30,224 bases of DNA from Verrucomicrobiales bacterium (GCA_011523195.1 WTHH01000246.1:1-30224), one strand, 5' to 3'; shown: positions 1,130-30,224, counted from the stretch's first letter. Numbers and translations are program-made. The notes: generated by a model not told the origin, from the letters alone.

Positions 1130-2186
1130 CCGCCGCCTCCAGTTTTTTCAGCGCGGCCTCCAGTTTTTCGTAGCCGGAATTCAGTGGTCGGTCGCGCAGT
1201 TTTTGCAGCTTGCGCGCGTAGGGGTTGCCGGGGCGTGCCGCCTCACTCATCAGGAAAATCGCCGCCTCACACGAGCGCGGTGTCCCGCGCAGGATCGCCG
1301 CCGAGAGCGTGGGATACGGCTCCAACGGATTTCCCCAGACGGCCTCCAGTGCCTCGAGAATTTCCTTCTCCCGATCGTTCCCCAGTTGCACTGTGGCCTT
1401 CAATTCCTCCCACAGCAGATGCTCCATCGGCAGCAAGCGGGACAGTGCTTCGAGCCCGACAACACGAATCGTGTAGCTGTCGTCCACCGCGAGCTGCACG
1501 GCGGTCGGCACCGCGCCAATACCCATGGTGGAGAGAGCATCCGCGGCGGCGTTGGCCTCGTTGCTTCCTGGCTTGGCCCGGATAATCTCGAGCAGTGCCG
1601 GGGCCGCCGGGGCCGCGTCGCGTTTCATGTAGCGCAGGAGATGGAACATCCGTGCGCGATGGTCGCCCTGCGCTTGGCCAAGCCGGTTGGTGATCTCACC
1701 AAGCGGCGCTGCGCCCATCGACCTCAGGGCCACGAGTGCGTTGTTGTAAACCAGGTGCTCGGGGTCGCCGAGCGCGGTGACAAGGTCGGGGATTGCCGGG
1801 GTGGCCGCTTGGCCAAGCGCTGCAAGGCCGGCCACGCCGCCCGCGCGTATCTCCGAAAGCTCGTAGGTGTTGGCCCAGCGCTGGATATCCTCCCGCTCGA
1901 GCAGCGGCACGGAGTCGACCACGCTGATCAACGGTCGTTTCCAGACTGGGTCGGTGTAGCGCAACGTCCGCCGCAGCCACGGCACGGCGTTGGTCCCTAG
2001 CCCGGCTACGGCCTCCTGTGCGGCGTCACGTCTGGCCGGGTCGGCCGTCACCAACATATCCTGCACCCAGTCCTCCAGCGGCCGACCATCGACCAACGGC
2101 CCGCGATCGCGTTGGGCGATGACGATGAACAGCCCAATGACCACCAGCACGCCAAGGCTGATTTTCAGGAGCCGCCGTTTCGTCAT
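1083..2186 (-). CDS. Membrane-anchored HEAT/ARM-repeat protein
   Basis: Likely start is ATG at 2186 (MTKRRLLKISLGVLVVIGLFIVIA, a basic region followed by a TM helix). HEAT-like helical repeats follow (AIPDLVTALGD...ALVALRSMG, AAPALLEII...AADALSTMG). It overlaps the convergent upstream gene by 47 nt. Confidence 0.7.
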   Translation of the reverse strand: MTKRRLLKISLGVLVVIGLFIVIAQRDRGPLVDGRPLEDWVQDMLVTADPARRDAAQEAVAGLGTNAVPWLRRTLRYTDPVWKRPLISVVDSVPLLEREDIQRWANTYELSEIRAGGVAGLAALGQAATPAIPDLVTALGDPEHLVYNNALVALRSMGAAPLGEITNRLGQAQGDHRARMFHLLRYMKRDAAPAAPALLEIIRAKPGSNEANAAADALSTMGIGAVPTAVQLAVDDSYTIRVVGLEALSRLLPMEHLLWEELKATVQLGNDREKEILEALEAVWGNPLEPYPTLSAAILRGTPRSCEAAIFLMSEAARPGNPYARKLQKLRDRPLNSGYEKLEAALKKLEAAASASEKPAGAKSTSR

Positions 2187-2236
2187 GGACAACAGTCTGG
2201 TAGCCCCGGCGTTTTGCGGGAAGAAAAAAAGCGTGT

Positions 2237-2812
2237 TTGGCCAAGCGACTTGCCAAGCAACGGCCCGGCGGGGAAACTCTCGCAGTGGACACAGAGGACA
2301 CGGCAACAAAACGGCGCCCCTCGCTTTTGCAGCGGATTTTGATCGGCGGAAACGTCCGCTGGACAATGGTGCGGCTGCTGGTGCTGCTGGCCGTGACGAC
2401 TTTTGTGCTGAACTACTTTTTTCCGGAAGGCGAGGCGCGGTACCGCCGCATTCTCGTAGACGGCAAAAGCATGGATCCCACCTACGTCCACGGGGCGACG
2501 CTCTGGATGCATGCCCTCGAGTATTCGGACCAGACACCGCAACGGGGCGACGTGGTGGTGCTGGGGCAGGAAGGGCACTCCCCTTTTTATCTTAAGCGCA
2601 TCATTGGCCTGCCCGGGGAGCGGGTGGCCATTCGCCGGGGCCAAATGACCATCGACGGAACCGTGTACGACGCATACGGGGAGGGGCGTATCCGCGCGCG
2701 GTTGACCCCTCTGACCCTCGGGAAGGACGAGTATTTCGTGCTGGGCGACAACCGGCCGATCAGCAGCGGCGGCGTGGTCGAGGCCGACAAGATTCTCGGG
2801 AAAATCCTTTAG
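2237..2812 (+). CDS. lepB: Signal peptidase I (S26 family); start uncertain (TTG 2237, GTG 2285 or ATG 2366)
   Basis: TM segment, then catalytic Ser box GKSMDPT, RGDVVV, catalytic Lys box YLKRIIGLPGERV, and YFVLGDNR. Confidence 0.85.
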   Translation: MAKRLAKQRPGGETLAVDTEDTATKRRPSLLQRILIGGNVRWTMVRLLVLLAVTTFVLNYFFPEGEARYRRILVDGKSMDPTYVHGATLWMHALEYSDQTPQRGDVVVLGQEGHSPFYLKRIIGLPGERVAIRRGQMTIDGTVYDAYGEGRIRARLTPLTLGKDEYFVLGDNRPISSGGVVEADKILGKIL

Positions 2813-2824
2813 CCGCCCGGCAGG

Positions 2825-3835
2825 CTAATCGGACTGTTCCTGAATCTGGCGGGTTATCTCCAACGCGAGCTCGATCGCCTGCCGAGCCGATTCCCCGGTG
2901 ACTACCGGTGCCTGTTTTTTTTTCACGCAATGGACAAAGCTCTCGAGTTCCACCTTGAGCGGTTCCTCCTGCACGATCGGCACCGGCTCGCGCACCACGC
3001 GTTTGCCGCCAAACTGGCTGACGATTGTGCTGTCCTTGGCTGTGAGTAGTTTCTTGAGGAAGGACGATTCCTGTTCGCCCTCTCGGGCGAGGCGATAGTA
3101 GTAGCCCTTCTGTTCGCGGTAATCGAGTGACACGTAGCTGGGTTCGTCGCCACCGCTGAACACACGAATCTTTCGCATCTGCTCCGGGCTGACCCGGCTG
3201 ACAGTCAGGTTGGCCACGCAGCCGTTGGCGAAGCGCAACCGCGAGTTGGCAATGTCCTCCGACTTGCTGAGCACGCGAACCCCGGCGGCGTCCACATGCT
3301 CCACCGGCGAGTCCACAAACGCGAGGACGATGTCGAGGTCGTGGATCATCAGGTCGAGCACCACCCCGATGTCCATGCTCCGTGCCGGGAAGGGCGAAAG
3401 CCGATGAGACTCGATGAAACGCGGCGACTTCGCGGCCTTTTGCAAATAGCTGTACACCGGATTGAAGCGTTCGATGTGGCCAACCTGCAGCACACAGTCG
3501 TACCGCTTGGCCAAGCGCACCAACTCGGCCGCCTCGTTGAGGTTGTCGGTCATCGGCTTTTCGATCAGCAGGTGTTTGCCCTGCTCTAGCAGCGGCTTCG
3601 CCAAGCGATGATGCGTGGTCGTCGGTGTGACTACGCTCAAGGCATCCGCCGCCGCTGCCTCCTCAACTGAGCCAAGCGCCTGGGTCCCGTATTTAGCCGC
3701 AACCGCTTCGGCCTGATCGGCGTTTGTGTCGTAGACGCCAATCAACTCCACAGCCCCTTGCTCGTGCAAATCGCTGTAAATTCGGACGTGGTTTTGCCCC
3801 AGCGAGCCCACACCTAGCACAGCCACCGTGATCAT
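2825..3835 (-). CDS. Gfo/Idh/MocA family NAD(P)-dependent oxidoreductase (GnnA/WlbA-like UDP-sugar dehydrogenase type)
   Basis: Rossmann motif VAVLGVGSLG, EKPM, GHIERFNP, DVVLDLMIHDLD-type box, ANLTVSRVS. Start is ATG 3835 or GTG 3844. Confidence 0.85.
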   Translation of the reverse strand: MITVAVLGVGSLGQNHVRIYSDLHEQGAVELIGVYDTNADQAEAVAAKYGTQALGSVEEAAAADALSVVTPTTTHHRLAKPLLEQGKHLLIEKPMTDNLNEAAELVRLAKRYDCVLQVGHIERFNPVYSYLQKAAKSPRFIESHRLSPFPARSMDIGVVLDLMIHDLDIVLAFVDSPVEHVDAAGVRVLSKSEDIANSRLRFANGCVANLTVSRVSPEQMRKIRVFSGGDEPSYVSLDYREQKGYYYRLAREGEQESSFLKKLLTAKDSTIVSQFGGKRVVREPVPIVQEEPLKVELESFVHCVKKKQAPVVTGESARQAIELALEITRQIQEQSD

Positions 3836-5237: not shown

Positions 5238-5243
5238 CATACT

Positions 5244-7232
5244 ATGGCTCTTGAAGAAGCTGATCAGGCGCGAGTGGACGAATTGGCCAAGCGTGCCTCG
5301 TCAGCCTTTGCCGAGTCTGACCTTGGCCAAGTGCGGCAGCTTTATGGGCAAGTTCTAAAGATTGACTCCACCCACCCTGCCGCCAACTACTGGCTGGGCT
5401 ACCTAGAGTGCCGCGAAGGCCGACCGGAAAACGGGGTAAACTATCTTCGGACAGCGACCGAATCGGCCTTGGCCTGTGCCGAGTGGCTGGCCCCCGACAG
5501 TCTGGTGGAGCTTGGCATGGCACTCAATTCGCTTGGCCAAGCAGACGAGGCGGCCGAGCAATTTGCCACCGTTCAACAGCGTTTCCCGAACTACGCCGAA
5601 GGGCAACTGTCCATTGCCGAGGATCTCGGCGGCGACGAGCATTTGGTCGAGCCGGCCATCGACGCCTGCCATCGCGGACTACTGGTCAACGGCCGGCACA
5701 AGGGGCTGCTAAAAAAAACCGCCGAGTTGCTTGAACAGGAGGAACGCTGGGACGAAGCGGCGGATTTCTGGGGGCACCTCGCGGAATTGTCGGCACCACA
5801 GGCCAACCTTCACATCAAGATGGGCATCGCCTGGCAGCACCACGGCGATGCCGGTTCCGCCCGGGAACAATTTGACAAGGCACTCACCCTCGAGCCGGAA
5901 AACGAGGCGGCCACCTTTGCGATGGTGCAACTGCTCGACGAACAGGGCGAACCGGAGGAAATCATCCCGCGCCTTGAGCGCTTGGCTAAGGCCAAGCCGG
6001 AGTCGGCACGGGTTGCCCTTGCGCTGGCCAACTACCTTCGCAAATACGGCCGCTTGGCCGAGGCAATCGACTGGTGGCGAAGTGGACTGGCCCGCGAGCC
6101 GAACTGGGACGACTCATGGCGCGACCTTGGCCTTGGGCTCGAGCATCTTCACCGTATCAACGAGGCAGTCGAAGCCTATCGGCACGCGGTGGAGGCGGTG
6201 CCGGACAATTCTGAAAACCACCGCTACCTCGCCTCCGCGTTGCAGGACGCCGGCCAGCTCGACAGCGCGCTCGAGTCATTCAACCGGGCGACCGAGTTGA
6301 ACACGGACAACGCCGAAGCTCACTGGGGTCGGTTCTGGGTGCGAGCGCTGCGGGGTGAATTTCCCGAAGCCTGGGACGACTACGAGTGGCGCTGGAAACT
6401 CTCCAACCGAAACACCCCACAACTCGATGACTCCACCCCGCTCTGGGATGGCAAAGACCTGAGTGGCCAGACGATTTTCCTGCGAGCGGAACAGGGCTAC
6501 GGCGACACCATCCAGGCCATTCGCTATGCGCCCAGGCTGGTGGAGATGGGGGCAACGGTGAAGGTCGGTTGCCCACCGGCGCTGGCCCGGCTGTTGGCCG
6601 ACGCGCCCGGCGTTAGCGAGGTGGCCACCGGCAACGCCGGCATGGTCACGTACCACTGCCATCAGGCGATGTTCAGCCTGCCGCGACTACTCGGCACCAC
6701 GCTCGACTCAATCCCCGGACCGGCCCCGTATCTCAAATCCCAAAGCCAAGCAGGGCTGGAGCTGCCGCAGACGAATGGCATCCTGCGGGTCGGCCTAGTC
6801 TGGCAGGGGTCTGGCAGCCAAAGCCTCGACCGGCGCTCGGTACCGTTCGAGTTGCTAAAACCGCTGCTGGAGCAGGAGCGGACGCTGTTTTTCTCACTAC
6901 AACTCGGCGACGCGGCGCACGATCCCAGCCGAGCTGGTGTGGAGGAGAAAATCGCGGATTTATCGCCATTAATGGACGATTTCGCCTCGACCGCCACGCT
7001 GATGGAACAGCTCGATCTGATCATCACGATCGACACCGCCGTGGCCCATCTGGCCGGTGCGCTTGGCAAGCCAACGTGGCTGCTGCTCTCAGCGACCCCC
7101 GATTGGCGCTGGATGCTGGAGCGATCGGACAGCCCTTGGTATCCCTCCATGCGACTCTTCCGCCAGGCCAAGCCGGGCGACTGGGCGGAGCCTTTGGCCA
7201 AGCTACGCGAGGAGCTGGGCCGGACGATCTAG
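5244..7232 (+). CDS. TPR-repeat protein with C-terminal GT-B glycosyltransferase (GT9-like) domain
   Basis: Multiple TPR repeats followed by WDDYEWRW, LWDG, EQGYGDTIQ, VGLVWQGS and DLIITIDTAVAHLAGALGKPTWLLL...DWRW, typical of the TPR-glycosyltransferase family. Confidence 0.85.
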   Translation: MALEEADQARVDELAKRASSAFAESDLGQVRQLYGQVLKIDSTHPAANYWLGYLECREGRPENGVNYLRTATESALACAEWLAPDSLVELGMALNSLGQADEAAEQFATVQQRFPNYAEGQLSIAEDLGGDEHLVEPAIDACHRGLLVNGRHKGLLKKTAELLEQEERWDEAADFWGHLAELSAPQANLHIKMGIAWQHHGDAGSAREQFDKALTLEPENEAATFAMVQLLDEQGEPEEIIPRLERLAKAKPESARVALALANYLRKYGRLAEAIDWWRSGLAREPNWDDSWRDLGLGLEHLHRINEAVEAYRHAVEAVPDNSENHRYLASALQDAGQLDSALESFNRATELNTDNAEAHWGRFWVRALRGEFPEAWDDYEWRWKLSNRNTPQLDDSTPLWDGKDLSGQTIFLRAEQGYGDTIQAIRYAPRLVEMGATVKVGCPPALARLLADAPGVSEVATGNAGMVTYHCHQAMFSLPRLLGTTLDSIPGPAPYLKSQSQAGLELPQTNGILRVGLVWQGSGSQSLDRRSVPFELLKPLLEQERTLFFSLQLGDAAHDPSRAGVEEKIADLSPLMDDFASTATLMEQLDLIITIDTAVAHLAGALGKPTWLLLSATPDWRWMLERSDSPWYPSMRLFRQAKPGDWAEPLAKLREELGRTI

Positions 7233-7247
7233 CGCTTGGCCAAGCGC
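7232..7247. repeat. Perfect 16-bp copy of the iterated palindrome (intergenic)
   Basis: GCGCTTGGCCAAGCGC; its first G is the last base of the TPR-GT stop codon TAG. Confidence 0.95.
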
Positions 7248-7290
7248 ACTCTCGACAGCCTTTCCCTTGCCACGCATTATCCGCGCCGCA

Positions 7291-8295
7291 ATGGCAGAAC
7301 CAGAAATCAAAACCAAGGTGGTCGGCAGCTATCCGATCCCGTCCTGGCTCAGCACAAACCCTTCCACGCCCACGCTGCGCGACGCGATCATGGTTGTGCT
7401 CAAGACGCAGGAGCTGGCCGGCATCGACCTGATCTCCGATGGCGAACTGTCTCGCTTCGACGTCAGCCATCCGCAGACGAACGGCATGATCGATTATTTC
7501 ATCCGGCCAATGGGCGGTATTTCATCGACCATTACCCGCGAGGACTTGGCCAATTTCGCCGCCGAGCAGCGAATGGGCTTTCGCACCCAGCCGGCCGGAG
7601 TGGTGGAGAGTGCCGTCACGGAGGGAACGCTGAACCTCCCGCGTGACTGGCAGTTTTTCAAGGGCCTCAGCCCGGCCACCACGATGTTCACTTTCACGGC
7701 GCCGTACATGTTGTCGCGGACACTGATCGACCGGCACTACGGCGACATTCGGCAGTTGACGATGGACATCGCCGAGGTGCTGCGCAAACAGGTCGAGTCG
7801 ATCGATGCGCCGGTGATTCAAATGGATGAGGCGCACCTCACCGGCCACGCGGAAGATGCCGAGTGGGCACACGAGCCGTTCAACCATGCGCTCAGCGGCA
7901 TTCGCGGCGAAAAATCGCTGCACCTTTGCTTTGGAAACTACGGCGGCCAATCCATCCAAAAAGGTTACTGGAAAGACCTCATGCCGTTCCTCAACAAGCT
8001 CGACGTGGATCACCTCGTGCTCGAATTCGCGCGGCGGGGTTACGACGAACTGGATGCCTTCAATGAACTCAAGCCGGAAACCAAGCTCGGTGTCGGCGTG
8101 GTCGACATCAAGGACAATGAAGTGGAGTCGACCGAAGTCATCGCGAAGCGGATCGAGAACGCAGTCAACGTGCTTGGGATGGAGCGCATCAAGTGGGTTC
8201 ATCCGGATTGCGGTTTTTGGATGCTGCCGCGTAGTGTGGCCGACCGGAAAATGGCTGCACTCGTCGCTGGACGTGATGCCTACCTCGGTCGCTAA
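7291..8295 (+). CDS. Cobalamin-independent methionine synthase-like core enzyme (only the MetE C-terminal catalytic barrel, 334 aa)
   Basis: VVGSYP start, ISDGE, IQMDE, Zn ligands HLC (H-x-C), LEF (E) and HPDCG (C). No N-terminal folate-binding half. ATG 7291. Confidence 0.8.
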   Translation: MAEPEIKTKVVGSYPIPSWLSTNPSTPTLRDAIMVVLKTQELAGIDLISDGELSRFDVSHPQTNGMIDYFIRPMGGISSTITREDLANFAAEQRMGFRTQPAGVVESAVTEGTLNLPRDWQFFKGLSPATTMFTFTAPYMLSRTLIDRHYGDIRQLTMDIAEVLRKQVESIDAPVIQMDEAHLTGHAEDAEWAHEPFNHALSGIRGEKSLHLCFGNYGGQSIQKGYWKDLMPFLNKLDVDHLVLEFARRGYDELDAFNELKPETKLGVGVVDIKDNEVESTEVIAKRIENAVNVLGMERIKWVHPDCGFWMLPRSVADRKMAALVAGRDAYLGR

Positions 8296-8389
8296 CAAGC
8301 GCAACTCCTTAGTATTTCAAGCGACAAGCAGCACAAAAACGCCCGAAAATCGACTTTTATCCACCCAGCCAGATTTTGCAAAAAGGGAG

Positions 8390-8407: not shown

Positions 8408-8491
8408 TGATTTTTTGGCTTGGTGTTGGAAAGTTTCTCACCAGTTATTAACAATTTTAAAACGTGGGACAAATTGTCTCTTTTTTGCGGG

Positions 8492-8795: not shown

Positions 8796-8810
8796 TGTAA
8801 ATCAATTTGG

Positions 8811-10851: not shown

Positions 10852-10875
10852 CGCGCTTGGCCAAGCTCCGCCAAT

Positions 10876-14517: not shown

Positions 14518-14604
14518 GCGCTGTCAGACGTCAAAAAAAAGTGCCCATATCATCTGAAAATGAGCGAAAAAAACTTCATCTGGGGCTTAACAGAACGCGC
14601 AGCC

Positions 14605-14666
14605 CGGTTGAGCATCCCGCAAAAATACGCATGAGGACTCTGCAGCCGCGGACCCGTGCATTTTTT
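14605..14666 (+). promoter_or_regulatory. Candidate structured leader (small hairpin plus terminator-like hairpin) upstream of the TonB receptor gene
   Basis: CGGTTG-AGCA-TCCCG (14605-14619), then an A-run, then hairpin GCATG-AGG-AC-TCTGC-AGCC-GCGGA-CC-CGTGC (14629-14659), then T6. It lies between divergent genes, so it is not a gene-end terminator. Confidence 0.35.
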
Positions 14667-14720
14667 ATCTGAGCAATTAAAAAACAACAAACCAAACCCC
14701 CAGGGATTAGTTTAACCATT

Positions 14721-17465: not shown

Positions 17466-17483
17466 TTATTAAACTACTATACG

Positions 17484-17516
17484 CGTGGTCCTCTACAAAG
17501 TAAGACCACGGGTTTT
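17484..17516 (+). terminator. Probable intrinsic terminator after the TonB receptor gene
   Basis: CGTGGTC (17484-17490) pairs with GACCACG (17504-17510) and is followed by GGTTTT. Confidence 0.5.
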
Positions 17517-17720
17517 CTATAGTTACTTTTATTAATATTAATTTTTCTACGGAAACGTTTTCATAATCACCGGCACTCGACAAAAAACTAAACTTCTTAC
17601 GAGCTCATCAATGTAAACAAATAATGCTTAAAATTTCAGAATGGGAAAACGTGTTAGATTTTTGCTGCAGTTAAGCCTTCCTCACTAAACACATGAACAA
17701 GTCAAACGCTTGACCAAGCG

Positions 17721-19082: not shown

Positions 19083-19101
19083 TGGCCGCTTGGCCAAGCG
19101 C

Positions 19102-20847: not shown

Positions 20848-22008
20848 ATGAAAAACGTCGTTCTACTCGGCAGCACCGGTTCCATCGGCACCAGCACCGC
20901 GAAGGTAGCGGAGGATCTGCCGGGGGACATCCACCTCGTCGGCCTCGCCGCAGGCGGCAACGACGCATTACTCGCGGAACAGGCCAATAAATTTCAACCC
21001 GAACTGGTCTCCATCAGTTCTCCGGAAAAGGCAGAAGGGCTGAGGTCAAAACTAGACGGCATTAGCGTGGCCAGTGGTGAGAAGGGATTGATCGAGTTGG
21101 CCACGCTGCCAAGCGCGGACATTGTGTTGATCGCCATCGTCGGCACTGCCGGATTGCAGCCGGCACTCGCTGCGATTAGGGCTGGGAAGGACATCGCCGT
21201 GGCCTCCAAGGAAATCCTCGTCATGGCCGGCGAAATCGTCATGGCCGAGGCACGCAAGCACGGCGTGAACGTGCTGCCAGTCGACAGCGAACATTCGGCA
21301 ATTTTCCAGTGCCTCGACGGTCGCCCGCCCGACTCGGTGCGACGCCTGATCCTGACCGCCTCGGGTGGACCGTTCCGGCAAACGCCTCTCGAAGACTTCG
21401 CCGGCATCACGGTCAAACAGGCGCTGAAACATCCCTCGTGGGTGATGGGCCGCAAAATCACCATCGACTCAGCCACCATGTTCAACAAGGGCCTCGAGAT
21501 GATCGAGGCACGCTGGCTGTTTAACATCCCGATGCCGCAGGTCGATGTCATCGTCCACCCGCAAAGCGTGGTGCACTCGATGGTCGAGTTCGTCGACGGC
21601 TCAATCCTTTCGCAACTTTCCACGCCCGACATGTGCCTGCCGATCCAGTACGCGCTCACTTGGCCAAGCCGCGCGGCGAGCGAGCGTGTGCAGACCGACT
21701 TCGCCGCGCTTGGCCGGCTGGACTTCGAGGCGCCGGCCGTGGCCAAGTTTCCCGCGCTTGACCAAGCGCGACGCGCCGGCGAAGTGGGCGGCACCCTCCC
21801 GGCCGTACTCAATGCCGCGAACGAAATCGCTGTCGACGCCTTCTGTGATGGGCAGACCTCGTTCGTCGGGATCGCGAGCCTGGTTACCGAGGTTATGGAT
21901 CAACACCAAGTCGTTGAGCATCCGTCGCTGGACGAAATTATCGAAGCCGACCAGTGGGCGCGGGAGACAGCCCGCGATGTGGTGGGCCTTGGCCAAGCGA
22001 TTGCCTGA
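20848..22008 (+). CDS. dxr: 1-deoxy-D-xylulose-5-phosphate reductoisomerase
   Basis: LGSTGSIG, ASKE, LPVDSEHSAIFQ, LTASGGPFR, HPSWVMGRKITIDSATMFNKGLE, HPQSVVHSMVEF, NAANE. Confidence 0.98.
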   Translation: MKNVVLLGSTGSIGTSTAKVAEDLPGDIHLVGLAAGGNDALLAEQANKFQPELVSISSPEKAEGLRSKLDGISVASGEKGLIELATLPSADIVLIAIVGTAGLQPALAAIRAGKDIAVASKEILVMAGEIVMAEARKHGVNVLPVDSEHSAIFQCLDGRPPDSVRRLILTASGGPFRQTPLEDFAGITVKQALKHPSWVMGRKITIDSATMFNKGLEMIEARWLFNIPMPQVDVIVHPQSVVHSMVEFVDGSILSQLSTPDMCLPIQYALTWPSRAASERVQTDFAALGRLDFEAPAVAKFPALDQARRAGEVGGTLPAVLNAANEIAVDAFCDGQTSFVGIASLVTEVMDQHQVVEHPSLDEIIEADQWARETARDVVGLGQAIA

Positions 22009-23240: not shown

Positions 23241-24037
23241 TGAAAAAACTGATCCTCACCTTTTTGTTCGCCGCTTGGCCAAGCGCAACCCTGCTGAACG
23301 CGGAAGAGCCACCTGGGCCGCTTGACCAGGCGCACGCGCACAACGACTACTACCACAAGCGGCCGCTGCTCGACGCCTTGTCGCACGGTTTTTGCAGTGT
23401 CGAGGCCGACGTGTTTTTGAAAAACGGCAGGCTGCTCGTCGGGCACTTTCAATTTGAGCTGCGCGAAAAACGATCGCTCGAGTCGCTTTACCTCGAGCCC
23501 CTGGCCAAGCGCGTGAAAGCCAACGGCGGCAGCGTCCACAAAACCAAGGCGCCATTTCACCTGATGATCGACTTCAAGACCGACGGCCCGAAGACCTATG
23601 CCGCACTCCAGCCGTTGCTCGAGAAATACCGGTTTATGCTCACCGAATTCGGGCCGGACAAAACCAAAACCAAGGCGGTGACTATCGTGATCTCCGGCAG
23701 CCGCCCGCGCGCCTCCATGGAAAAACAAGCCAAGCGCCTGGCAGGCTACGACGGGCGGATGTCCGATCTTGGCAAAGGGGCGGGCCCGCATTTCATGCCT
23801 TGGATCAGCGACAGTTGGCGGTCGCACTTCAAGTGGCGCGGCAAGGGTGATCTCCCGGCAGCCGAGCAGACCAAGCTCAAACGCATCGTCCAGCAGGCCC
23901 ACAAGGATGGACAAAAAGTCCGCTTCTGGGCCGCACCCGACAACCCCGCCACTTGGGCCGTGCTGCAGCAGGCCGGTGTCGACTTCATCAACACCGACCG
24001 CCTCGAAGCCTTGGCCAATTTCCTGCGAGCCAAGTAA
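23240..24037 (+). CDS. Secreted PI-PLC/glycerophosphodiester phosphodiesterase-superfamily protein (AIM6-like)
   Basis: Signal peptide, HAHNDY, SVEADV, LMIDFK, VRFWAAPD, GVDFINTD.L. The start overlaps the fucD stop. Confidence 0.75.
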   Translation: MKKLILTFLFAAWPSATLLNAEEPPGPLDQAHAHNDYYHKRPLLDALSHGFCSVEADVFLKNGRLLVGHFQFELREKRSLESLYLEPLAKRVKANGGSVHKTKAPFHLMIDFKTDGPKTYAALQPLLEKYRFMLTEFGPDKTKTKAVTIVISGSRPRASMEKQAKRLAGYDGRMSDLGKGAGPHFMPWISDSWRSHFKWRGKGDLPAAEQTKLKRIVQQAHKDGQKVRFWAAPDNPATWAVLQQAGVDFINTDRLEALANFLRAK

Positions 24038-25090: not shown

Positions 25091-26295
25091 TGATTTACAG
25101 GCGCTTCATTGAACTAATTTTGTTTTGCGCGCTTGGCCAGGCGCTTGGCCAAGCGGCTGAGCCGTTGCCCCTACCGGAGAGTACGCCGTGGGATGTTACG
25201 GCGCTGAAAAAGGCACCAAAGTTCGAGTGGATTCGGCAGGAAGGCGACGTGCAAGCCCTGCTGTATGCTGGTGAAAAATATCGCGGAAAGCCCACCAGGG
25301 TGTTCGCCTACTACGCCTCGCCCAGGACGCTTGGCCAAGCGGTAAAGGGCAAGGTGCCGGGCATCGTGCTGGTGCACGGCGGCGGCGGTACGGCGTTTGC
25401 CAGCTGGGCACAGTTGTGGGCCAAGCGCGGCTATGCGGCCATCGCGATGGACTTGGCCGGTTGCGGCGAGGGACGCAAGCGGCTGCCGGACGGTGGCCCG
25501 GGCCAAAGTCACACGGACAAGTTTAGCACCATCGACGAGCCGCTCGAGAACCAATGGTCGTACCACGCGGTCGCCAACGTGATCCGAGGACACTCACTGC
25601 TGCGCAGTTTCGCCGGGGTGGATGGCGATCACGTCGCGCTGACCGGGATCAGTTGGGGCGGCTACCTGACCTGCATCGTTGCCGGGGTGGATGATCGATT
25701 TGCTATGGCCATGCCGGTCTACGGGTGCGGTTTCTTGCAGGAAAATAGCGTCTGGAAAGTTGGTGAGTTTGGCAAAATGACCACCGCGCAGTCGGACAAA
25801 TGGCATCGACTTTGGGATCCGTCGCGCTACATCGGTTCGGCGAAGATGCCGGTGATGTTCCTGAACGGCACAAACGATTTTGCCTATCCGATGGACAGCT
25901 ACGCCAAAACCTGCGCGCTGGTGAGGAGCGAGAAAAACTACAGCATCCAGCTCAACATGAAGCACGGGCACCTCTTCGAATTCCCGGAATTCTTCCTGTT
26001 CGCCGACCAGTACATCCGCGGAGGCAAACCGATGCCGGTGGTCGCCAGGCCGGTCATCGACGGTGGCAAAGTCCGCACGTCGGTCAAGTCGGAGACCAAG
26101 TTGATCGAGGCCAAGCTGCACTACACCACGGCACCGCATGAACAAAACCGGAGCCGCGTCTGGAAAACAATCGAACTCAAGGTGAACGGACATCACGCCC
26201 AGGGCGCTGCCCCGCCCAGCGAGGCCACAGTCTGGTACATCGCCATCCAAGACGAACGCAAAGCCATCGTCAGCAGCGAACTAATTGTTCAATGA
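25090..26295 (+). CDS. Secreted alpha/beta hydrolase (acetylxylan esterase / dienelactone hydrolase-like)
   Basis: Signal peptide, VLVHGGGG, nucleophile elbow GISWGG, GTND and catalytic His region KHGH. Confidence 0.8.
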   Translation: MIYRRFIELILFCALGQALGQAAEPLPLPESTPWDVTALKKAPKFEWIRQEGDVQALLYAGEKYRGKPTRVFAYYASPRTLGQAVKGKVPGIVLVHGGGGTAFASWAQLWAKRGYAAIAMDLAGCGEGRKRLPDGGPGQSHTDKFSTIDEPLENQWSYHAVANVIRGHSLLRSFAGVDGDHVALTGISWGGYLTCIVAGVDDRFAMAMPVYGCGFLQENSVWKVGEFGKMTTAQSDKWHRLWDPSRYIGSAKMPVMFLNGTNDFAYPMDSYAKTCALVRSEKNYSIQLNMKHGHLFEFPEFFLFADQYIRGGKPMPVVARPVIDGGKVRTSVKSETKLIEAKLHYTTAPHEQNRSRVWKTIELKVNGHHAQGAAPPSEATVWYIAIQDERKAIVSSELIVQ

Positions 26296-28853
26296 AAAGG
26301 TTGATTGCCATCATATTAATAGCCGTGCTTGGCCAAGCGCTTGGCCAGGCGGCGGAGCGGTTTGATTTTCATACCATCCGCAAGCCGGCATCTACGGCTG
26401 TTCAAGGTGTTCTCGAGGGAGAATTCCTGCAGGCCAGCGGCAGGGCCCGACCTCAGGGCATGAGCGGTTTCGGCGCCGGCTGGAGTGGCGATGCTCACCT
26501 GCTCTGGGACGGCGTGGTTGGCGACTCAAACACGGTGGAGTTTTCCGTTGGGGAAACAGGCAAATACGCACTGGCGATGCGATGGACTTTAGCGCCGGAT
26601 TACGGGCTGTTCGAAGTGCGGTTGAATGGGAAGGTAATCGAGTCCAAACTGGATTTGTATTCGCCTGACGTCCGCTTGGCCAAGCTGCGTGAACTGGGTG
26701 AATTGGAATTGAACGCAGGCACGCAACGGATCGAGATCAAGTTGATCGGGGCCAACGCCAAGGCGAGCAAGTACCAAAAAAAGGGTTACCTTTACGGGTT
26801 GGATTACCTGAAACTGACGGACTCGGCGCCCAAGCCGGTGAAGGTGGAAGAACCGGAGCAGGCTGTTGTCGTGAAGGTGGATTTCGCCGAGGCGCGTGCA
26901 TTGATGAAGCAGCATTGTTTTCGCTGCCACGGCGCAAAAAAGGTGAAGGGCAAGGTGAACCTAGAGGCCTTGGCCAAGCGCTCCGATGTTTTGAAAGACG
27001 TGGAGCTGGCGCGACACGCGGCGGAGGCTTTGGCCAAGGCGGAGATGCCACCGGAGGATGAGCCGCAGCCGGCCAAGGGCGAGCGGGCAAAGTTGGCGGC
27101 GTTTTTTGAAGGTGTGGTGGATGAATATGTATCGGCCAACACCACGCTCGAACCGGTGGTGATGCGGCGGCTGAACCGCTACGAGTACAACAACGCCGTA
27201 CGCGATCTGCTGGAGTTGCGCGGCGACATTTATCCGCTACCGGAAAAGGTGATTCGCTCGAGCCAGTATTTCGACCCCGCCTCGGGTCGGATGCCAGCGG
27301 GCGTGACGGTGGGCAACCGCACGCTCGGCAAGTTTCAGGTGGAGCGACAGATTTTGTCCGGCGTGGACCCGTTCGCCATCGACCTGCAGGCGGAGCACGG
27401 CTTCAACAATCAAGGCGAGCAGCTCAGCATCCCGCCGATCCTTCTGGAGAGTCTGCTCAAGCTCGGCCGCTCGATCGTGAACGCAAAGGAGTTCGACGAT
27501 TACACGGCGTTGCGCGACACGATTTTTAAGGATAACGGGAAACCGGTAGCCAAGCGGTTGAGGCCGTTTTTGGAGCGGGCATTCCGGTCGCCGGTGGATG
27601 AGGCGACGCTGGCGCGATACACCGCATTTCACACTTCAGAGCAAAAACGCACCGGCTCGTACACCACGGCGATGAAGTCGGTGGTGGCGGCTGTGCTGGC
27701 TTCGCCCAAATTTATTTACGTGGTGGAAAGCAAGCAGGGCGCGGGCGAAAAGACACCTGCGAATGATTACGAGCTGGCGCAACGGCTGTCGCTGTTTCTC
27801 TGGAGCAGCATCCCGGATGAACCTCTGCTAGCCGCCGCACGGGAAGGGCAGTTGCGGCAACCGGCCTTGCTGGAGGCACAGGTACGTCGCATGTTGAATG
27901 ACCGGCGCAGTCGAGCGTTGTCCGAGAACTTCGCGCGCCAATGGCTGCGGCTGGATCAACTCATCACCGCCGTGCCCGACTTCGACCGCTTTCAGGTGTA
28001 CTACTCGCGCATCGGCTGCGAGCAGTGGAAGTTTGGCCTACAAACAATGGTCGAGCCGCTGCTGCTCTTTGAGAGCGTACAGGTGGAGGATCGCTCTATC
28101 ATGCTTTTTGTCGACAGCAACTACGCGTATCGATCCGACGAGTTGCAGGCGTGGTACAACAAGCCCGAGGCACCGTTCGGCAACCGCGGCAATCGCAATC
28201 GCTTTAATACCTTCACGCAGCCATTCCGCAAACGCCAGCTCACCACGCGGCGCGAGGGCGGCGTGATGACCACCGCAGCGGTGCTGACGATGACCTCGAC
28301 GCCGCTGCGTACCAGCCCAATCAAGCGGGGCGCGTGGGTGGCCACGGTGATGTTCAATGACCCGCCGCCGCCGCCGCCGGACGTGGTGCCGGAGATTGAA
28401 GCCGACGACGCAGCCATCGAGGCGAAGGGTCTGACTATTCGCGAGCGACTCAAGCAACACGCGACCGACCAATCTTGCGCCAGTTGTCACGCACGCATCG
28501 ATCCACTCGGGTTTGTGCTGGAGAGTTTCGATCCCATCGGACGCTGGCGCGACCAGTACCGCGGCGGGCGCGATATCGACGCGAGCGGCAAGCTCTTCGG
28601 CGAGGCGGAGTTTAAGGACATCGAGCAGTTCAAGGACGCCATTCTTGCGAGGCCGGAGAAATTCATGCGCGCCTTCAGTGAACATCTGTTAAGCTACGCG
28701 CTCGGTCGCGAATTAAAGGTGACAGACAAGCCGGCGATCGATCGCATCACGCGGCGGGTTACGGCGGATCACGGCCGCTTTTCCACCGTGGTGGTTGAGA
28801 TTGCCAAGAGCATGCCGTTTCGGCATAAAACCGGTCAGAACGAAAGAAAATGA
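26292..28853 (+). CDS. DUF1592/DUF1588-family (PSD/PSCyt) c-type cytochrome domain protein with an N-terminal beta-sandwich domain
   Basis: Signal peptide, CxxCH motifs CFRCH and CASCH, MRRLNRYEYNNAVRDLL (DUF1587), FLERAFR (DUF1595), YELAQRLSLFLWSSIPD (DUF1592), RTSPIKRGAWV (DUF1588), LLSYALGR (DUF1585). Confidence 0.88.
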   Translation: MKRLIAIILIAVLGQALGQAAERFDFHTIRKPASTAVQGVLEGEFLQASGRARPQGMSGFGAGWSGDAHLLWDGVVGDSNTVEFSVGETGKYALAMRWTLAPDYGLFEVRLNGKVIESKLDLYSPDVRLAKLRELGELELNAGTQRIEIKLIGANAKASKYQKKGYLYGLDYLKLTDSAPKPVKVEEPEQAVVVKVDFAEARALMKQHCFRCHGAKKVKGKVNLEALAKRSDVLKDVELARHAAEALAKAEMPPEDEPQPAKGERAKLAAFFEGVVDEYVSANTTLEPVVMRRLNRYEYNNAVRDLLELRGDIYPLPEKVIRSSQYFDPASGRMPAGVTVGNRTLGKFQVERQILSGVDPFAIDLQAEHGFNNQGEQLSIPPILLESLLKLGRSIVNAKEFDDYTALRDTIFKDNGKPVAKRLRPFLERAFRSPVDEATLARYTAFHTSEQKRTGSYTTAMKSVVAAVLASPKFIYVVESKQGAGEKTPANDYELAQRLSLFLWSSIPDEPLLAAAREGQLRQPALLEAQVRRMLNDRRSRALSENFARQWLRLDQLITAVPDFDRFQVYYSRIGCEQWKFGLQTMVEPLLLFESVQVEDRSIMLFVDSNYAYRSDELQAWYNKPEAPFGNRGNRNRFNTFTQPFRKRQLTTRREGGVMTTAAVLTMTSTPLRTSPIKRGAWVATVMFNDPPPPPPDVVPEIEADDAAIEAKGLTIRERLKQHATDQSCASCHARIDPLGFVLESFDPIGRWRDQYRGGRDIDASGKLFGEAEFKDIEQFKDAILARPEKFMRAFSEHLLSYALGRELKVTDKPAIDRITRRVTADHGRFSTVVVEIAKSMPFRHKTGQNERK

Positions 28854-30145
28854 ACGTATTAAAGAACAAGAACATACCGAGGCGCACATTTCTGCATGGC
28901 TGCGGTGCGGCGCTAGCGCTGCCATTTCTCGATGTGATGCACACTCGCGGGGCCAGCGCATCGGCGCCCAAGCGCGTGGCCTTTTTCTACGTGCCCAACG
29001 GCGTGGCTCAGGAGGCATGGCACCCGAAGGAGACCGGGCACAACTTCGCACTCAGCCGCACACTGCAACCGTTGGAGCCGGTGCGCAAAAAGATTTCGCT
29101 CTTCACCAATCTCGACCGCGTGAAAGTGCCCGGCACCGACGGCCACGCGCAGGCCGGAACGTGTTACCTGAGCACGGCCGCGCCCGATGAACTGTCTCCG
29201 GCCGGGTATCCAATCAAGCGCACCATCGACCAGATCATTGCCGACACCGCCGGCAAGACCACGCCGTTCCGTTCGCTCGAGCTGTCGTGCAACAGCTTCA
29301 CCGACAACAAGGAGTCGGTGTATTTCGATAACATCTCGTGGTACGGCCACGGGCACGTGGCGCGGTCGATCAAGGATCCGCGCAAGGTTTTCCAGCGCCT
29401 GTTCAACGTGAAAGAACACCAGGCCAATGCCAGCGTGCTCGACCTCGTGCGTGCCGATGCGAAGGATTTGAAGGGCCGATTGGGGCGGCTGGATCGCCAC
29501 AAGCTCGACGAGTACATGGACTCCGTGCGAACTGTCGAACAGCAGATCGAGCGCATCACCAAGCAACAGGTGGACGCCAACGAACTTGGCATTGAACAGC
29601 CGGAGAAACTCTGGACCAGCATGCGCCGCGATGAATACATTCAGGTGATGGGCGACCTGATGATCCTCGCGCTGCAGACCGATCTCACTCGAGTCAGCTC
29701 CATGATGGTCGCGCCGGAACGCTGGGACACGCCGCTGATGTTCGAGGATGTGTTTGCGAAACCCATTCTCCACCACGGCTGGACCCACAATCAAAGGAAC
29801 GAAAAGGTACTCAGCGACCTCGAGAAGCTTGATCAATTTTACATGCGGCAGTTCTCGCAGATTTGCCAAAAGATGGATGCCATCAAGGAAGGAGACGGCA
29901 CGTTGCTCGACAGCATGATGTTCACCTACGGCTCCGGCCTCAGCAGCGGCATGCTGCACGAGTGCTCCAATCTGCCCACCGTCATTGCCGGCAGCGCTGG
30001 CGGCCAGTTGAAAACCAACCGGCACGATCAGCATGCCAAGGGCACACCGATCGCCAACCTCTGGGTCTCCATGGCCCAGGCCATGGGCTGCCCGATTCAG
30101 AAACTCGGTGACAGCACCGGTGCACTGAAAGGGTTTCTCGCCTGA
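28850..30145 (+). CDS. DUF1552 domain protein (partner of DUF1592 proteins)
   Basis: RRTFLHGCGAALALPFL N-terminus, FFYVPNG, TIDQIIA, RSLEL, DPRKVFQRLF, LALQTDLTRV, DGTLLDS, NLPTVIAG, PIANLW. Confidence 0.9.
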   Translation: MNVLKNKNIPRRTFLHGCGAALALPFLDVMHTRGASASAPKRVAFFYVPNGVAQEAWHPKETGHNFALSRTLQPLEPVRKKISLFTNLDRVKVPGTDGHAQAGTCYLSTAAPDELSPAGYPIKRTIDQIIADTAGKTTPFRSLELSCNSFTDNKESVYFDNISWYGHGHVARSIKDPRKVFQRLFNVKEHQANASVLDLVRADAKDLKGRLGRLDRHKLDEYMDSVRTVEQQIERITKQQVDANELGIEQPEKLWTSMRRDEYIQVMGDLMILALQTDLTRVSSMMVAPERWDTPLMFEDVFAKPILHHGWTHNQRNEKVLSDLEKLDQFYMRQFSQICQKMDAIKEGDGTLLDSMMFTYGSGLSSGMLHECSNLPTVIAGSAGGQLKTNRHDQHAKGTPIANLWVSMAQAMGCPIQKLGDSTGALKGFLA

Positions 30146-30224
30146 TATCGCGCTTGACCTAGCGCTTGGTTTACAAAGGAGACAGGCGTTTCTCCGTTCC
30201 CTTGGCCAAGCGGAATTAGTTGAA

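What the first reader, a model, noticed from the sequence alone, without database searches (positions are those of the whole stretch)
1670..30214. Window-wide highly iterated 16-bp palindrome GCGCTTGGCCAAGCGC, a HIP1-like system outside cyanobacteria
Seen: at least 28 exact TTGGCCAA and 22 exact CTTGGCCAAG in 30.2 kb. Assuming 60% GC and independent bases, I expect about 0.4 and 0.035 copies respectively. There are perfect 16-mers at 7232 and 11017 and 15/16 copies at 1805, 3503, 13554, 19086, 21754 and 23271. Conservation falls off symmetrically from the GGCC centre. The copies sit inside essential genes (mfd, dxr, purA) in all three frames: LAKR (RLAKRY, PRLAKRT), LGQA (ALGQA, GLGQA) and WPS (LTWPSR, AAWPSA). 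Codon or amino-acid bias therefore cannot explain them, and they have no common flanks as a mobile REP or MITE would. Known: cyanobacterial HIP1 (GCGATCGC) behaves this way and is linked to a methylated core; uptake sequences and nucleoid-protein sites (parS, matS, NBS) are other dispersed motifs. Inference: this is a lineage-specific, DNA-level motif actively created or maintained by a methylation/repair process or bound by a chromosome-organising or uptake protein. I do not recall this motif being described.
Basis: partly seen in the sequence, partly recalled or inferred. Interest (0 to 1): 0.92.

Follow-up and report, generated by a model that had tools for sequence, protein, structure and literature searches.

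The report
Transformation-linked iterated palindrome in marine Verrucomicrobia
A 16-base DNA palindrome occurs about once per kilobase in one genus of marine Verrucomicrobia, and it fades in each lineage that has deleted its DNA-uptake genes (comEC, dprA, comM), so it most likely works as a "self" tag for natural transformation, like the uptake sequences of Neisseria and Haemophilus.

Summary
The window holds 28 TTGGCCAA (0.8 expected) and the genome 2,608 (about 40 expected). The excess survives shuffles that keep the protein sequence (2,068 against 272 in coding DNA). Independent metagenome assemblies support it, and it arises by point substitution with no common flanks.

The motif fills 20 of 25 sister species and none of 35 other families of the order.

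The methylation reading fails. No C5, N4/N6, Dam-type or gamma-class DNA methyltransferase and no Vsr was found in motif-rich genomes.

The new result is that motif density tracks the transformation genes. comEC, dprA and comM were detected in 41 of 51 tests in 17 motif-rich genomes. None is intact in 8 genomes from at least four independent loss lineages. Synteny shows real deletions. MutS and secretin are kept in all eight, and PilM in seven.

The 12-mer falls after loss:
- intact genomes: 150-567 per Mb
- G000: 421 (fresh loss)
- G010: 119
- G025: 45
- low-GC clade: 2-5

GC3 falls from about 0.8 to 0.3. The window's own genome is a fresh loss.

Best reading (0.6): an uptake-sequence-like tag maintained by natural transformation, reader unknown. 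The scan noted this motif before in other genomes. I found no paper describing it.

The parts
7232..7247 (.). Perfect 16-mer GCGCTTGGCCAAGCGC. It is intergenic and starts on the last base of the TAG stop of the TPR/GT9 gene.
11017..11032 (.). Perfect 16-mer inside mfd, read as RLAKRT.
10853..10868 (.). 15/16 copy in the convergent spacer, 2 nt after the TGA stop of the LPG-synthase-like gene. Other strains carry the perfect form (T>G at 10867).
1670..1685 (.). 14/16 copy in a hypothetical gene on the - strand, read as RLGQAQ.
1805..1820 (.). 15/16 copy in the same gene, read as ALGQAA.
2233..2248 (.). 13/16 copy with an exact TTGGCCAA core, read in the WP frame (VAWPNT).
3503..3518 (.). 15/16 copy in the GFO/IDH/MocA oxidoreductase gene, read as RLAKRY.
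5279..5544 (.). Three exact TTGGCCAA cores (5283, 5323, 5533) at the 5' end of the TPR/GT9 gene, read as ELAKRA, DLGQVR and SLGQAD.
7190..7205 (.). Exact core near the 3' end of the TPR/GT9 gene, read as PLAKLR.
7542..7557 (.). Exact core in a hypothetical gene on the - strand, read as EIGQVL.
13300..14248 (.). Four copies in mfd. Three have exact cores at 13304, 14114 and 14237 (GLAKRD, HLAKRP, RLAKCS). A 15/16 copy at 13554 reads GCGCCTGGCCAAGCGC. The orthologous sites are shared with sister species.
19004..19101 (.). Two copies: the end of purA (ALAKLT) and the start of uppS (15/16, RLAKRM).
21656..22000 (.). Copies in dxr: 21660 (LTWPSR), 21754 (15/16 GCGCTTGACCAAGCGC) and 21989 (GLGQAI, also read as GPWPSD in the overlapping next gene).
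23271..23286 (.). 15/16 copy in the GDPD-like gene, read as AAWPSA.
24007..24022 (.). Exact core with degenerate flanks, read as ALANFL.
25129..25156 (.). Tandem dimer of two copies that overlap by GCGC (12-bp period), in the signal-peptide region of a hydrolase (ALGQALGQAA).
25327..25342 (.). 14/16 copy in the hydrolase gene, read as TLGQAV.
26325..26352 (.). Second tandem dimer with a 12-bp period, at the start of the DUF1592 gene (VLGQALGQA).
26672..27041 (.). Three exact cores in the DUF1592 gene (26676, 26970, 27030), read as RLAKLR, ALAKRS and ALAKAE.
30198..30213 (.). 13/16 copy, intergenic, after the DUF1552 gene.
14600..17600 (+). Motif-free, AT-rich island with GC 0.426 against 0.597 for the rest of the window. 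It holds a TonB-dependent receptor reading frame with in-frame stops. It acts as an internal negative control: DNA of foreign composition lacks the tag.

Best explanation
The palindrome (GCGC)TTGGCCAA(GCGC) is a genus-specific 'self' tag. Natural transformation keeps its abundance high, in the manner of DNA uptake sequences (DUS of Neisseriaceae, USS of Pasteurellaceae).

Proposed mechanism:
1. Competent cells preferentially take up or incorporate fragments that carry the motif.
2. Alleles that gain the motif by point mutation are therefore over-transmitted by recombination (molecular drive).
3. The motif accumulates wherever the encoded peptide tolerates it: LGQA, LAKR, spacers, and just after stop codons.
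4. When the DNA translocation and processing genes comEC, dprA and comM are lost, the drive stops. The motif then decays by ordinary, mostly transition, mutation, and GC content falls with it.

Shown here:
- the genome-wide excess beyond codon and protein constraints
- origin by substitution at orthologous sites
- restriction to one genus
- absence of DNA methyltransferases and Vsr
- repeated, synteny-proven co-deletion of comEC, dprA and comM
- lower motif density, a lower exact/one-off ratio and lower GC3 in every loss lineage than in its intact sister

Inferred:
- that the ancestors were naturally transformable
- that the bias acts at uptake rather than after it
- that the symmetry means a dimeric reader

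The reader protein is unknown.
For: Excess and anatomy:
- The genome holds 2,608 TTGGCCAA and 1,203 copies of the 12-mer in 2.86 Mb.
- The excess survives both synonymous and whole-codon shuffles.
- There are no flanks beyond +-8.
- Copies lie at orthologous positions and arise by substitution, including amino-acid changes, without indels.

Distribution:
- The motif is abundant in 20 of 25 congeners and at background (0-3 copies) in 35 other families of the order.
- Those other families nearly all have comEC, 37 of 39. The tag is therefore a clade-specific addition to a common machinery, as with DUS and USS.

Competence genes:
- ComEC was found in 14, DprA in 13 and ComM in 14 of the 17 rich genomes that hold at least one of them, 41 of 51 tests.
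- None is intact in G000, G001, G004, G005, G007, G024, G010 or G025.
- Synteny shows clean deletions or replacement for comEC, dprA and comM.
- G000 itself has a 1,957-bp deletion in comEC, a 1,277-bp deletion in comM and two frameshifts in dprA, relative to its 94%-identical sister G018.
- No other deletion over 500 bp appears in about 190 kb of unselected G018 DNA.

Independence of the losses:
- A tree of 16 proteins and 7,660 columns places the losses on at least four separate branches (the Mfd tree agrees).

Gradient after loss:
- 12-mer copies per Mb: intact genomes 150-567 (median 262), G000 421, G010 119 (sister G019 248), G025 45, low-GC clade 2-5.
- Ratio of exact copies to one-mismatch copies: 1.13, 0.98, 0.65, 0.42, 0.31 and 0.12 for G018, G000, G019, G010, G025 and G001.
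- GC3 on shared codons: G019 0.808 against G010 0.754, G018 0.734 against G000 0.718, G025 0.556, low-GC clade 0.28-0.36.
- G000 and G010 lost the genes while the motif is still common, so gene loss comes before decay.

Controls kept in the loss genomes:
- MutS in 8 of 8.
- Secretin in 26 of 26 genomes.
- PilM in 7 of 8.

Features shared with DUS and USS:
- Density is higher in spacers (1.55 against 0.58 per kb), highest in convergent spacers (3.1 per kb), and copies sit a median 26 bp after stop codons.
- The motif is missing from DNA of foreign composition.

A 2026 paper reports an analogous correlation between HIP1 and competence and pilus genes in cyanobacteria (PMC13756078).
Against: - No uptake or transformation experiment exists for this uncultured group, and no receptor was found.
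- Only two of the four contrasts are strong (low-GC clade, G025). G010 at 119 per Mb lies only just below the range of intact genomes (150-567). G000 is too recent to show decay: G018-only against G000-only sites are 37 against 25, not significant.
- GC content falls together with the motif, so a general shift in mutation or recombination regime, rather than loss of uptake bias, could contribute.
- Known DUS and USS are asymmetric. This motif is a perfect palindrome.
- Copies are clustered rather than evenly spaced. The coefficient of variation (CV) of the spacing is 1.15, and 94 pairs sit exactly 12 bp apart.
- The genomes are 59-93% complete MAGs with one representative per species. G011 (363 per Mb, 67% complete) shows none of the three genes and could not be checked by synteny.
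Confidence: 0.6

Rival explanations
1. The motif depends on transformation but acts after uptake. It would bias events inside the cell. Incoming single strands with the palindrome might form a hairpin that protects or loads them. The motif might be a recombination hotspot of the Chi type. Mismatches in transformation heteroduplexes might be corrected towards the motif (motif-biased gene conversion). Uptake itself would be unselective.
For: This explains the same co-variation with comEC, dprA and comM. The parallel fall of GC3 after loss suggests that conversion-type processes operate. The 16-mer can form a 6-bp stem with a GGCC loop as single-stranded DNA. In cyanobacteria HIP1 raises transformation efficiency only when it lies within the homology (abstract of bioRxiv 10.1101/2024.09.10.611283).
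Against: The hairpin is weak at -5.5 kcal/mol, with z = -1.8. The strongest conservation is in the loop and centre (TTGGCCAA), not the stem, which is the opposite of what a pure structure signal predicts. No Vsr-type motif-directed repair enzyme was found.
Confidence: 0.2
2. The motif is the binding site of a dimeric chromosome-organising or nucleoid-associated protein and is kept by selection. The link with competence genes is indirect. Lineages that changed lifestyle relaxed selection on many functions and drifted to low GC, which erased a GC-rich site.
For: The site is a symmetric 16-bp sequence whose information decays gradually, as for many dimeric DNA-binding proteins. Copies are conserved at orthologous sites across species with 75-80% Mfd identity. 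GC decline accompanies motif decline.
Against: Known sites of this type (parS, NBS, matS, SBS; from my own knowledge) number tens per genome, not about 2,600. In G010 the exact copies are half those of its sister although GC3 dropped only from 0.81 to 0.75. The losses are specific: MutS is kept in all eight loss genomes, secretin in all 26 genomes and PilM in seven of the eight loss genomes, while three transformation genes are deleted four times over. Gene loss precedes motif decay in G000 and G010.
Confidence: 0.12
3. This is a HIP1-style methylation-coupled motif. An orphan DNA methyltransferase recognises the core (GGCC or TGGCCA), and a biased very-short-patch repair converts near-cognate sites to the motif.
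For: The motif resembles HIP1 in form. Transitions dominate the one-mismatch variants. TGGCCA and GGCC are known type II specificities (from my own knowledge).
Against: No PF00145 (found only in G007 and G009), PF01555 (only G007), PF02086 (only G007), PF02384 (0 of 5 rich genomes) or Vsr (only G020) was found in motif-rich genomes. GGCC itself is at expectation, 23,444 against 23,564. The commonest core variant is T>C at position 3 (70 copies), not GGCC>GACC (22-24 copies).
Confidence: 0.05
4. The motif is a mobile or structural repeat (REP, MITE, terminator hairpin) or an assembly or adapter artefact.
For: Density is higher in spacers and just after stop codons.
Against: - 78% of copies lie inside genes.
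- There are no flanks.
- Orthologous positions differ by point substitutions without indels.
- The intergenic copies have no T tails, and the scan found no more terminator-like sites than in shuffled sequence.
- The motif is present in independent assemblies from at least 8 studies and in 20 species.
Confidence: 0.01

Closest known systems
DNA uptake sequences: DUS of Neisseriaceae (GCCGTCTGAA and dialects; receptor ComP, PMC3868556) and USS of Pasteurellaceae (PMC7811141; predicted receptor ComN, bioRxiv 10.1101/2025.06.16.659825)
   Same: - About one copy per kb through genes and spacers.
- Clade-specific and shared by related species.
- Written by point substitution into tolerant reading frames.
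- Enriched behind genes.
- Missing from foreign DNA.
- Here its abundance depends on an intact transformation gene set.
   Different: - It is a perfect 16-bp palindrome rather than an asymmetric 9-12-mer.
- It lies in a different phylum (Verrucomicrobiota).
- No receptor is known.
- Biased uptake has not been demonstrated.
- Copies are clustered and often form 12-bp tandem dimers.
HIP1 (GCGATCGC) and alternate highly iterated palindromes of cyanobacteria (Elhai 2015, PMC4390886; Xu et al. 2018, PMC5861425; Rodriguez-Cruz et al. 2026, PMC13756078)
   Same: - A hyper-abundant short palindrome in coding and non-coding DNA.
- It exceeds codon-aware expectation.
- It is conserved at orthologous sites.
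- HIP1 abundance was recently found to correlate phylogenetically with pilus and competence proteins.
   Different: - HIP1 is recognised by the orphan methyltransferases DmtA and DmtC, and its effect on transformation depends on methylation. Here no DNA methyltransferase was found.
- The sequence differs and is longer, with a graded consensus.
- It is restricted to one genus, not spread across a phylum.
Other hyper-iterated palindromes noted by this scan in Verrucomicrobiota (GCAAWTTGC clade, e1-929360; ACCGGT in Luteolibacter, e1-5279974)
   Same: They lie in the same phylum and show the same kind of genome-wide, substitution-written palindrome.
   Different: The words and the clades differ. 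I did not test whether those motifs also follow competence genes.

Membership tests
DNA uptake sequences (DUS/USS type) | A short word over-represented by orders of magnitude genome-wide, in genes and spacers, beyond codon and protein constraints | tested here: met
   The genome holds 2,608 copies against about 40 expected. Coding DNA holds 2,068 against 272 and 90 in the two shuffles.
DNA uptake sequences (DUS/USS type) | Shared by a clade of related species and absent from neighbouring clades that have the same uptake machinery | tested here: met
   20 of 25 congeners hold 144 to 1,852 copies of the 12-mer. 35 other families hold 0-3 copies, although 37 of 39 of the other families have comEC.
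DNA uptake sequences (DUS/USS type) | Abundance depends on a working transformation pathway | tested here: met
   At least four independent co-losses of comEC, dprA and comM each show lower motif density, a lower exact/one-off ratio and lower GC3 than the intact sister. This is a correlation, not an experiment.
DNA uptake sequences (DUS/USS type) | Competent cells take up motif-bearing DNA preferentially | not testable with these tools
   The group is uncultured and no uptake data exist.
DNA uptake sequences (DUS/USS type) | A dedicated receptor (ComP-type minor pilin) that binds the word | not tested
   No candidate was identified. Pilus genes (secretin, PilM) are kept in loss lineages. An HHH_3 (ComEA-like) gene is not discriminating.
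HIP1-type highly iterated palindromes | A hyper-abundant palindrome, conserved at orthologous sites, in all tolerated frames | tested here: met
HIP1-type highly iterated palindromes | Cognate orphan DNA methyltransferases that recognise the core (DmtA/DmtC type) | tested here: not met
   PF00145 was found in 2 of 26 genomes, PF01555 in 1 of 26, PF02086 in 1 of 26 and PF02384 in 0 of 5 rich genomes. The only positive rich genome is G009, for PF00145 alone.
Very-short-patch-repair-driven word bias (Dcm/Vsr type) | A Vsr endonuclease and a C5 methyltransferase are present, and deamination products of the site are depleted | tested here: not met
   Vsr was found in 1 of 26 genomes. The one-mismatch spectrum shows general transitions, and T>C at position 3 is the commonest.
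REP / MITE / RAYT-associated palindromes | Common flanks, intergenic location, and presence or absence by insertion | tested here: not met
   There is no information beyond +-8. 78% of copies are intragenic. Orthologous sites differ by substitutions only.
Nucleoid or segregation protein sites (parS, NBS, matS, SBS) | Tens of copies, regionally confined on the chromosome | tested here: inconclusive
   The copy number of about 2,600 is far higher. Chromosomal position cannot be mapped on a MAG of 575 contigs.

The most novel reading that the evidence does not exclude
Natural transformation is what sustains both a palindromic self-tag and the high GC content of these genomes. Each time comEC, dprA and comM are deleted, the tag erodes and synonymous GC collapses, from about 0.8 to about 0.3 within one genus. 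The tag would be read by a new, probably dimeric, receptor unrelated to ComP, and without any DNA methylation. If so, this genus is a natural experiment that explains what highly iterated palindromes such as HIP1 are for. It would also show transformation-driven GC-biased conversion in the wild.
Probability: 0.35. Interest if true: 0.9.

Novelty: new variant of a known kind. Interest (0 to 1): 0.8.

Why it matters
Uptake sequences are established only in two proteobacterial families. The function of the cyanobacterial HIP1 palindrome has been debated for 30 years and was tied to transformation only recently.

This Verrucomicrobia genus has a third, independent motif of the same kind. It also has repeated, datable losses of the transformation genes, each followed by motif decay. 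That makes the question "what maintains such words?" testable by comparative genomics alone.

The genus points to a way of finding the unknown reader: look for genes co-lost in the four loss lineages. It gives a usable marker of self against foreign DNA in these MAGs. It also suggests that loss of transformation can drive a shift of 20 points in genomic GC.

Tried and rejected
- **Methyltransferase and Vsr profiling.** Five families were negative in motif-rich genomes, so the methylation reading was dropped.
- **ComEA via HHH_3 (PF12836).** Hits occur in both loss and intact genomes, in ORFs of 370-500 aa next to a pilM-like gene, so they do not discriminate.
- **Relics in the deletion gaps.** Neither tblastn nor blastn found any ComEC or DprA remnant in G010, G025, G005 or G007.
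- **Gain/loss asymmetry between G018 and G000.** The direction is as predicted (37 against 25 for the 10-mer) but it is not significant, and the 8-mer and 12-mer are nearly symmetric.
- **Polarised sites for G019 and G010 with G009 as outgroup.** I counted 6 losses against 3, too few to test.
- **Apparent indels of about 380 bp between G018 and G000.** They turned out to be runs of N in the G018 scaffolds, not elements.
- **Terminator reading.** The intergenic copies have no T tails, the hairpin is weak, and the scan found no more terminator-like sites than in shuffled sequence.
- **Mismatch-repair loss as the cause of the GC fall.** MutS is present in all 10 genomes tested.
- **Literature.** Searches for TTGGCCAA, CTTGGCCAAG, palindromes in Verrucomicrobia and uptake sequences in Verrucomicrobia found no description. 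Elhai 2015 contains none of six search terms I tried, including TGGCCA, 'outside cyanobacteria' and 'non-cyanobacteria'.
- **Reader protein.** I did not attempt an unbiased search, because whole genomes other than G000 cannot be loaded.


Full report
**Observation.** The window holds 28 exact TTGGCCAA, against 0.82 expected from dinucleotide shuffles with a maximum of 3. It holds 22 CTTGGCCAAG. It has 33 matches to GCGCTTGGCCAAGCGC with up to 3 mismatches, against 0.58 expected. Two are perfect (7232, 11017) and ten have one mismatch.

**Genome-wide excess.** The window is contig C368 of a MAG of 2.86 Mb in 575 contigs, with 57.7% GC. Genome-wide there are 2,608 TTGGCCAA (about 40 expected from composition), 1,991 copies of the 10-mer, 1,203 of the 12-mer and 243 perfect 16-mers. 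The eight commonest octamers of the genome are all pieces of this word.

I called 2,451 genes with a simple codon model, giving 89.5% coding DNA. Two shuffles of the coding DNA give the following.

| Word | Observed in coding DNA | Synonymous codons shuffled, protein kept | Whole codons shuffled |
|---|---|---|---|
| TTGGCCAA | 2,068 | 272 | 90 |
| 12-mer | 866 | 23 | 0.7 |
| GGCC | 23,444 | 23,564 | 23,214 |

Both codon choice and the protein sequences themselves have been bent towards the word. The bare GGCC core is at expectation.

**Not an artefact.** The stretch 5000-14500 is held in at least 14 marine metagenome runs from at least 8 studies. One independent 40.6-kb contig covers it with 48 differences.

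**Anatomy.**
- Information decays symmetrically from the centre: C/G at +-5 in 86% of copies, +-6 in 68%, +-7 in 66% and +-8 in 47%. There is nothing beyond, so there are no MITE or REP flanks.
- Each one-mismatch variant of the 12-mer is 17 to 240 times rarer than the consensus. Transitions dominate. The commonest core variant is T>C at position 3 (70 copies), not GGCC>GACC (22-24 copies).
- The 10-mer occurs at 0.58 per kb in genes and 1.55 per kb in spacers. In genes it is read as LGQ (633 copies), LAK (758) and rarely WPS (100).
- Among spacers, density is highest in convergent ones (3.1 per kb), then tandem (2.1) and divergent (1.4). In tandem spacers the centre lies a median 26 bp after the upstream stop codon. 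Inside genes the first decile is enriched.
- Copies are clustered (CV 1.15), and 94 pairs lie exactly 12 bp apart as dimers that share GCGC.
- 2-kb windows of low GC are motif-poor even after correcting for composition. In the window, the AT-rich island at 14.6-17.6 kb (GC 0.426) has no copy.
- The intergenic copies have no T tails and the hairpin is weak, so they are not intrinsic terminators.

**Where it occurs.** Mfd relatives identify a marine Verrucomicrobiales lineage, with records such as UBA6775, SB9160_S9_bin_9 and CPC23. The 12-mer occurs 144 to 1,852 times in 20 of 25 species of the same genus-level group. It occurs 6-14 times in five others, and 0-3 times in single genomes of 35 other families of the order.

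The five poor species have about 40% GC, and their mfd GC3 is 0.36-0.39. The rich species have 58-67% GC and GC3 of 0.74-0.88. G025 is intermediate. TTGGCCAA is still the most over-represented palindromic octamer in poor genome G001, with 25 copies in 270 kb against 3.5 expected. I read this as a relic.

In codon alignments of mfd and 16 other genes, motif sites are shared at orthologous columns among rich species. They differ from non-motif states by substitutions only, including amino-acid changes such as T>A and F>L, and never by indels.

**The methylation reading fails.** Searches of all 26 genomes gave the following.

| Family | Genomes with a hit |
|---|---|
| C5 methyltransferase (PF00145) | G007 and G009 only |
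| N4/N6 methyltransferase (PF01555) | G007 only |
| D12/Dam class (PF02086) | G007 only |
| Vsr (PF03852) | G020 only |
| Gamma-class N6 methyltransferase (PF02384) | none of five rich genomes |

All searches hit the expected control genomes.

**The new result: the motif follows the transformation genes.** ComEC (PF03772), DprA (PF02481) and ComM (PF13541) were found in 14, 13 and 14 of the 17 rich genomes that have at least one of them. That is 41 of 51 tests, about what MAG completeness allows.

No intact copy was found in the five low-GC genomes, in G025, in G010 or in G000.

Synteny shows these are real losses and not assembly gaps.

| Gene | Arrangement in intact genomes | State in loss genomes |
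|---|---|---|
| comEC | Between a 456-aa gene and a 155-aa gene in G009, G015, G019, G021 and G018 | The two neighbours are adjacent (gap about 50-105 bp) in G001, G004, G007, G024 and G010. An unrelated 2.4-kb segment separates them in G025. |
| dprA | Between a 341-aa gene and a 491-aa gene | Missing in G005, G001, G010 and G025 |
| comM | Between two conserved neighbours | The neighbours are adjacent (15-55 bp) in G001, G004, G007 and G025 |

**The window's own genome is a fresh loss.** I compared G000 with its sister G018, which is 94.4% identical over 180 kb.
- G000 has a 1,957-bp deletion inside comEC. Only residues 1-217 of the 881-residue open frame remain (C211).
- It has a 1,277-bp deletion inside comM (C14).
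- It has a 1-bp and a 2-bp deletion in dprA (C567).
- No other deletion over 500 bp appears in about 190 kb of unselected G018 DNA.

**Independence and direction.** I built a tree from 16 concatenated proteins (7,660 columns).
- The five low-GC species form one clade (support 100), sister to G000.
- G010 is sister to the intact G019 (support 100), nested among intact G009, G021 and G015.
- G025 sits on its own branch. The Mfd tree is compatible.

With G000 set against G018, this gives at least four independent losses. In each one the loss lineage has fewer motifs than its intact sister.

| Loss lineage | 12-mer per Mb | Intact comparison | 12-mer per Mb |
|---|---|---|---|
| Low-GC clade | 2-5 | G000/G018/G003/G011 group | 360-560 |
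| G025 | 45 | G015, G021, G009, G019 | 238-461 |
| G010 | 119 | G019 | 248 |
| G000 | 421 | G018 | 442 |

The ratio of exact copies to one-mismatch copies is less sensitive to composition. It runs 1.13 (G018), 0.98 (G000), 0.65 (G019), 0.42 (G010), 0.31 (G025) and 0.12 (G001).

GC3 on shared codons falls in the same order: G019 0.808 against G010 0.754, G018 0.734 against G000 0.718, G025 0.556, and the low-GC clade 0.28-0.36.

G000 and G010 have lost the genes while the motif is still common. The gene loss therefore comes first and the decay follows.

**Specificity controls.**
- MutS is present in all 10 genomes tested, including all eight loss genomes.
- Secretin is present in 26 of 26 genomes.
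- PilM is present in 7 of 8 loss genomes.
- The neighbours of the deleted genes are intact.
- comEC is present in 37 of 39 other families of the order, none of which has the motif. The machinery is ancestral and common. The tag is a genus-specific addition.

**Interpretation.** The best-supported reading is that the palindrome is a self-DNA tag maintained by natural transformation, as uptake sequences are. Fragments that carry it are favoured at uptake or incorporation. Motif-creating mutations therefore spread by recombination wherever they are tolerated. Once comEC, dprA and comM are gone, the word decays by mutation.

The statistics, the gene losses and the ordering are shown here. Three things are inferred:
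- that the ancestors were competent
- that the bias acts at uptake
- that the twofold symmetry means a dimeric reader

I put 0.6 on this reading, of which about 0.4 is for bias at uptake proper. I put 0.2 on a transformation-dependent but post-uptake mechanism.

I put 0.12 on a nucleoid-protein site whose decay merely accompanies a general change of regime. I put 0.05 on methylation-coupled repair and about 0.01 on a repeat element or artefact.

**Comparison with the known.** The motif works like DUS and USS. It shares their density, their clade restriction, their writing by substitution into tolerant frames, their enrichment behind genes and their absence from foreign DNA. It now also shows dependence on transformation genes. 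It differs in being a perfect palindrome, in its phylum, and in lacking a known receptor or uptake data.

It looks like HIP1 but fails HIP1's defining link to cognate orphan methyltransferases. A 2026 paper reports that HIP1 abundance correlates with pilus and competence proteins and proposes it as an uptake sequence (PMC13756078). The present case is an independent and cleaner parallel.

**Novelty.** I found no description of this word in the searchable literature. The scan itself had already noted the same palindrome in several other genomes of this clade. As far as those short notes show, the link to competence-gene loss, the absence of methyltransferases and the GC gradient are new here.

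**Limits.**
- The genomes are incomplete MAGs with one representative per species.
- Only two of the four contrasts are large.
- Intact genomes vary from 150 to 567 copies per Mb for unknown reasons.
- G011 could not be resolved.
- There is no experimental evidence for competence in this group.
- The reader protein is unidentified.

Noticed in passing
window 14600-17600: This is an AT-rich island with GC 0.426 against 0.597 for the rest of the window. It holds a TonB-dependent receptor frame (Plug and beta-barrel domains) broken by in-frame stops, and it has no motif copy. Its GC is close to that of the low-GC sister clade. It is likely foreign or recently acquired DNA.
   Followed up: partly
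G000 contig C567, about 2677-3155 (outside the window): A low-GC insertion of about 460 bp lies just upstream of the frameshifted dprA and is absent from sister G018. It encodes a small, hydrophobic ORF that looks like a membrane protein.
   Followed up: no
L093 (G019:C25:2039-5227), L094 (G009:C174), G001:C49:47222-48332: An HHH_3 (ComEA-like) gene sits directly beside a pilM-like gene. The same contig carries a secretin domain inside an open frame of about 4,000 aa (G019:C25, G009:C16, G018:C184 and others). This cluster is kept in the lineages that lost comEC, dprA and comM.
   Followed up: no
genus-level group, genomes G001-G025: GC content spans about 40% to 67% within one genus-level group, and GC3 of shared genes spans 0.28 to 0.88. 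The low-GC species are nested inside the group, not basal.
   Followed up: partly
G007 (L028-L033): Almost all DNA methyltransferase genes of the genus are concentrated in one low-GC, motif-poor, 4.5-Mb genome. It has two PF00145 hits, three PF01555 hits (two of them adjacent on contig C130, one with 6 stops inside, so probably one broken gene) and one PF02086 hit. The motif-rich species have essentially none.
   Followed up: no
whole genome G000; window 25129-25156 and 26325-26352: 94 pairs of motif cores lie exactly 12 bp apart, as dimers that share GCGC. In genes this writes LGQALGQA, often in signal-peptide regions. It suggests slippage or conversion that copies the unit.
   Followed up: partly
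window 5286 and 10867: Strain polymorphisms occur inside motif copies in other metagenomes. G>A at 5286 destroys a core in one study. T>G at 10867 completes the perfect 16-mer in two others.
   Followed up: no
G025 L126, about 6850-9350: In G025 the comEC slot holds an unrelated 2.4-kb segment with a 498-aa ORF, rather than a clean deletion.
   Followed up: no
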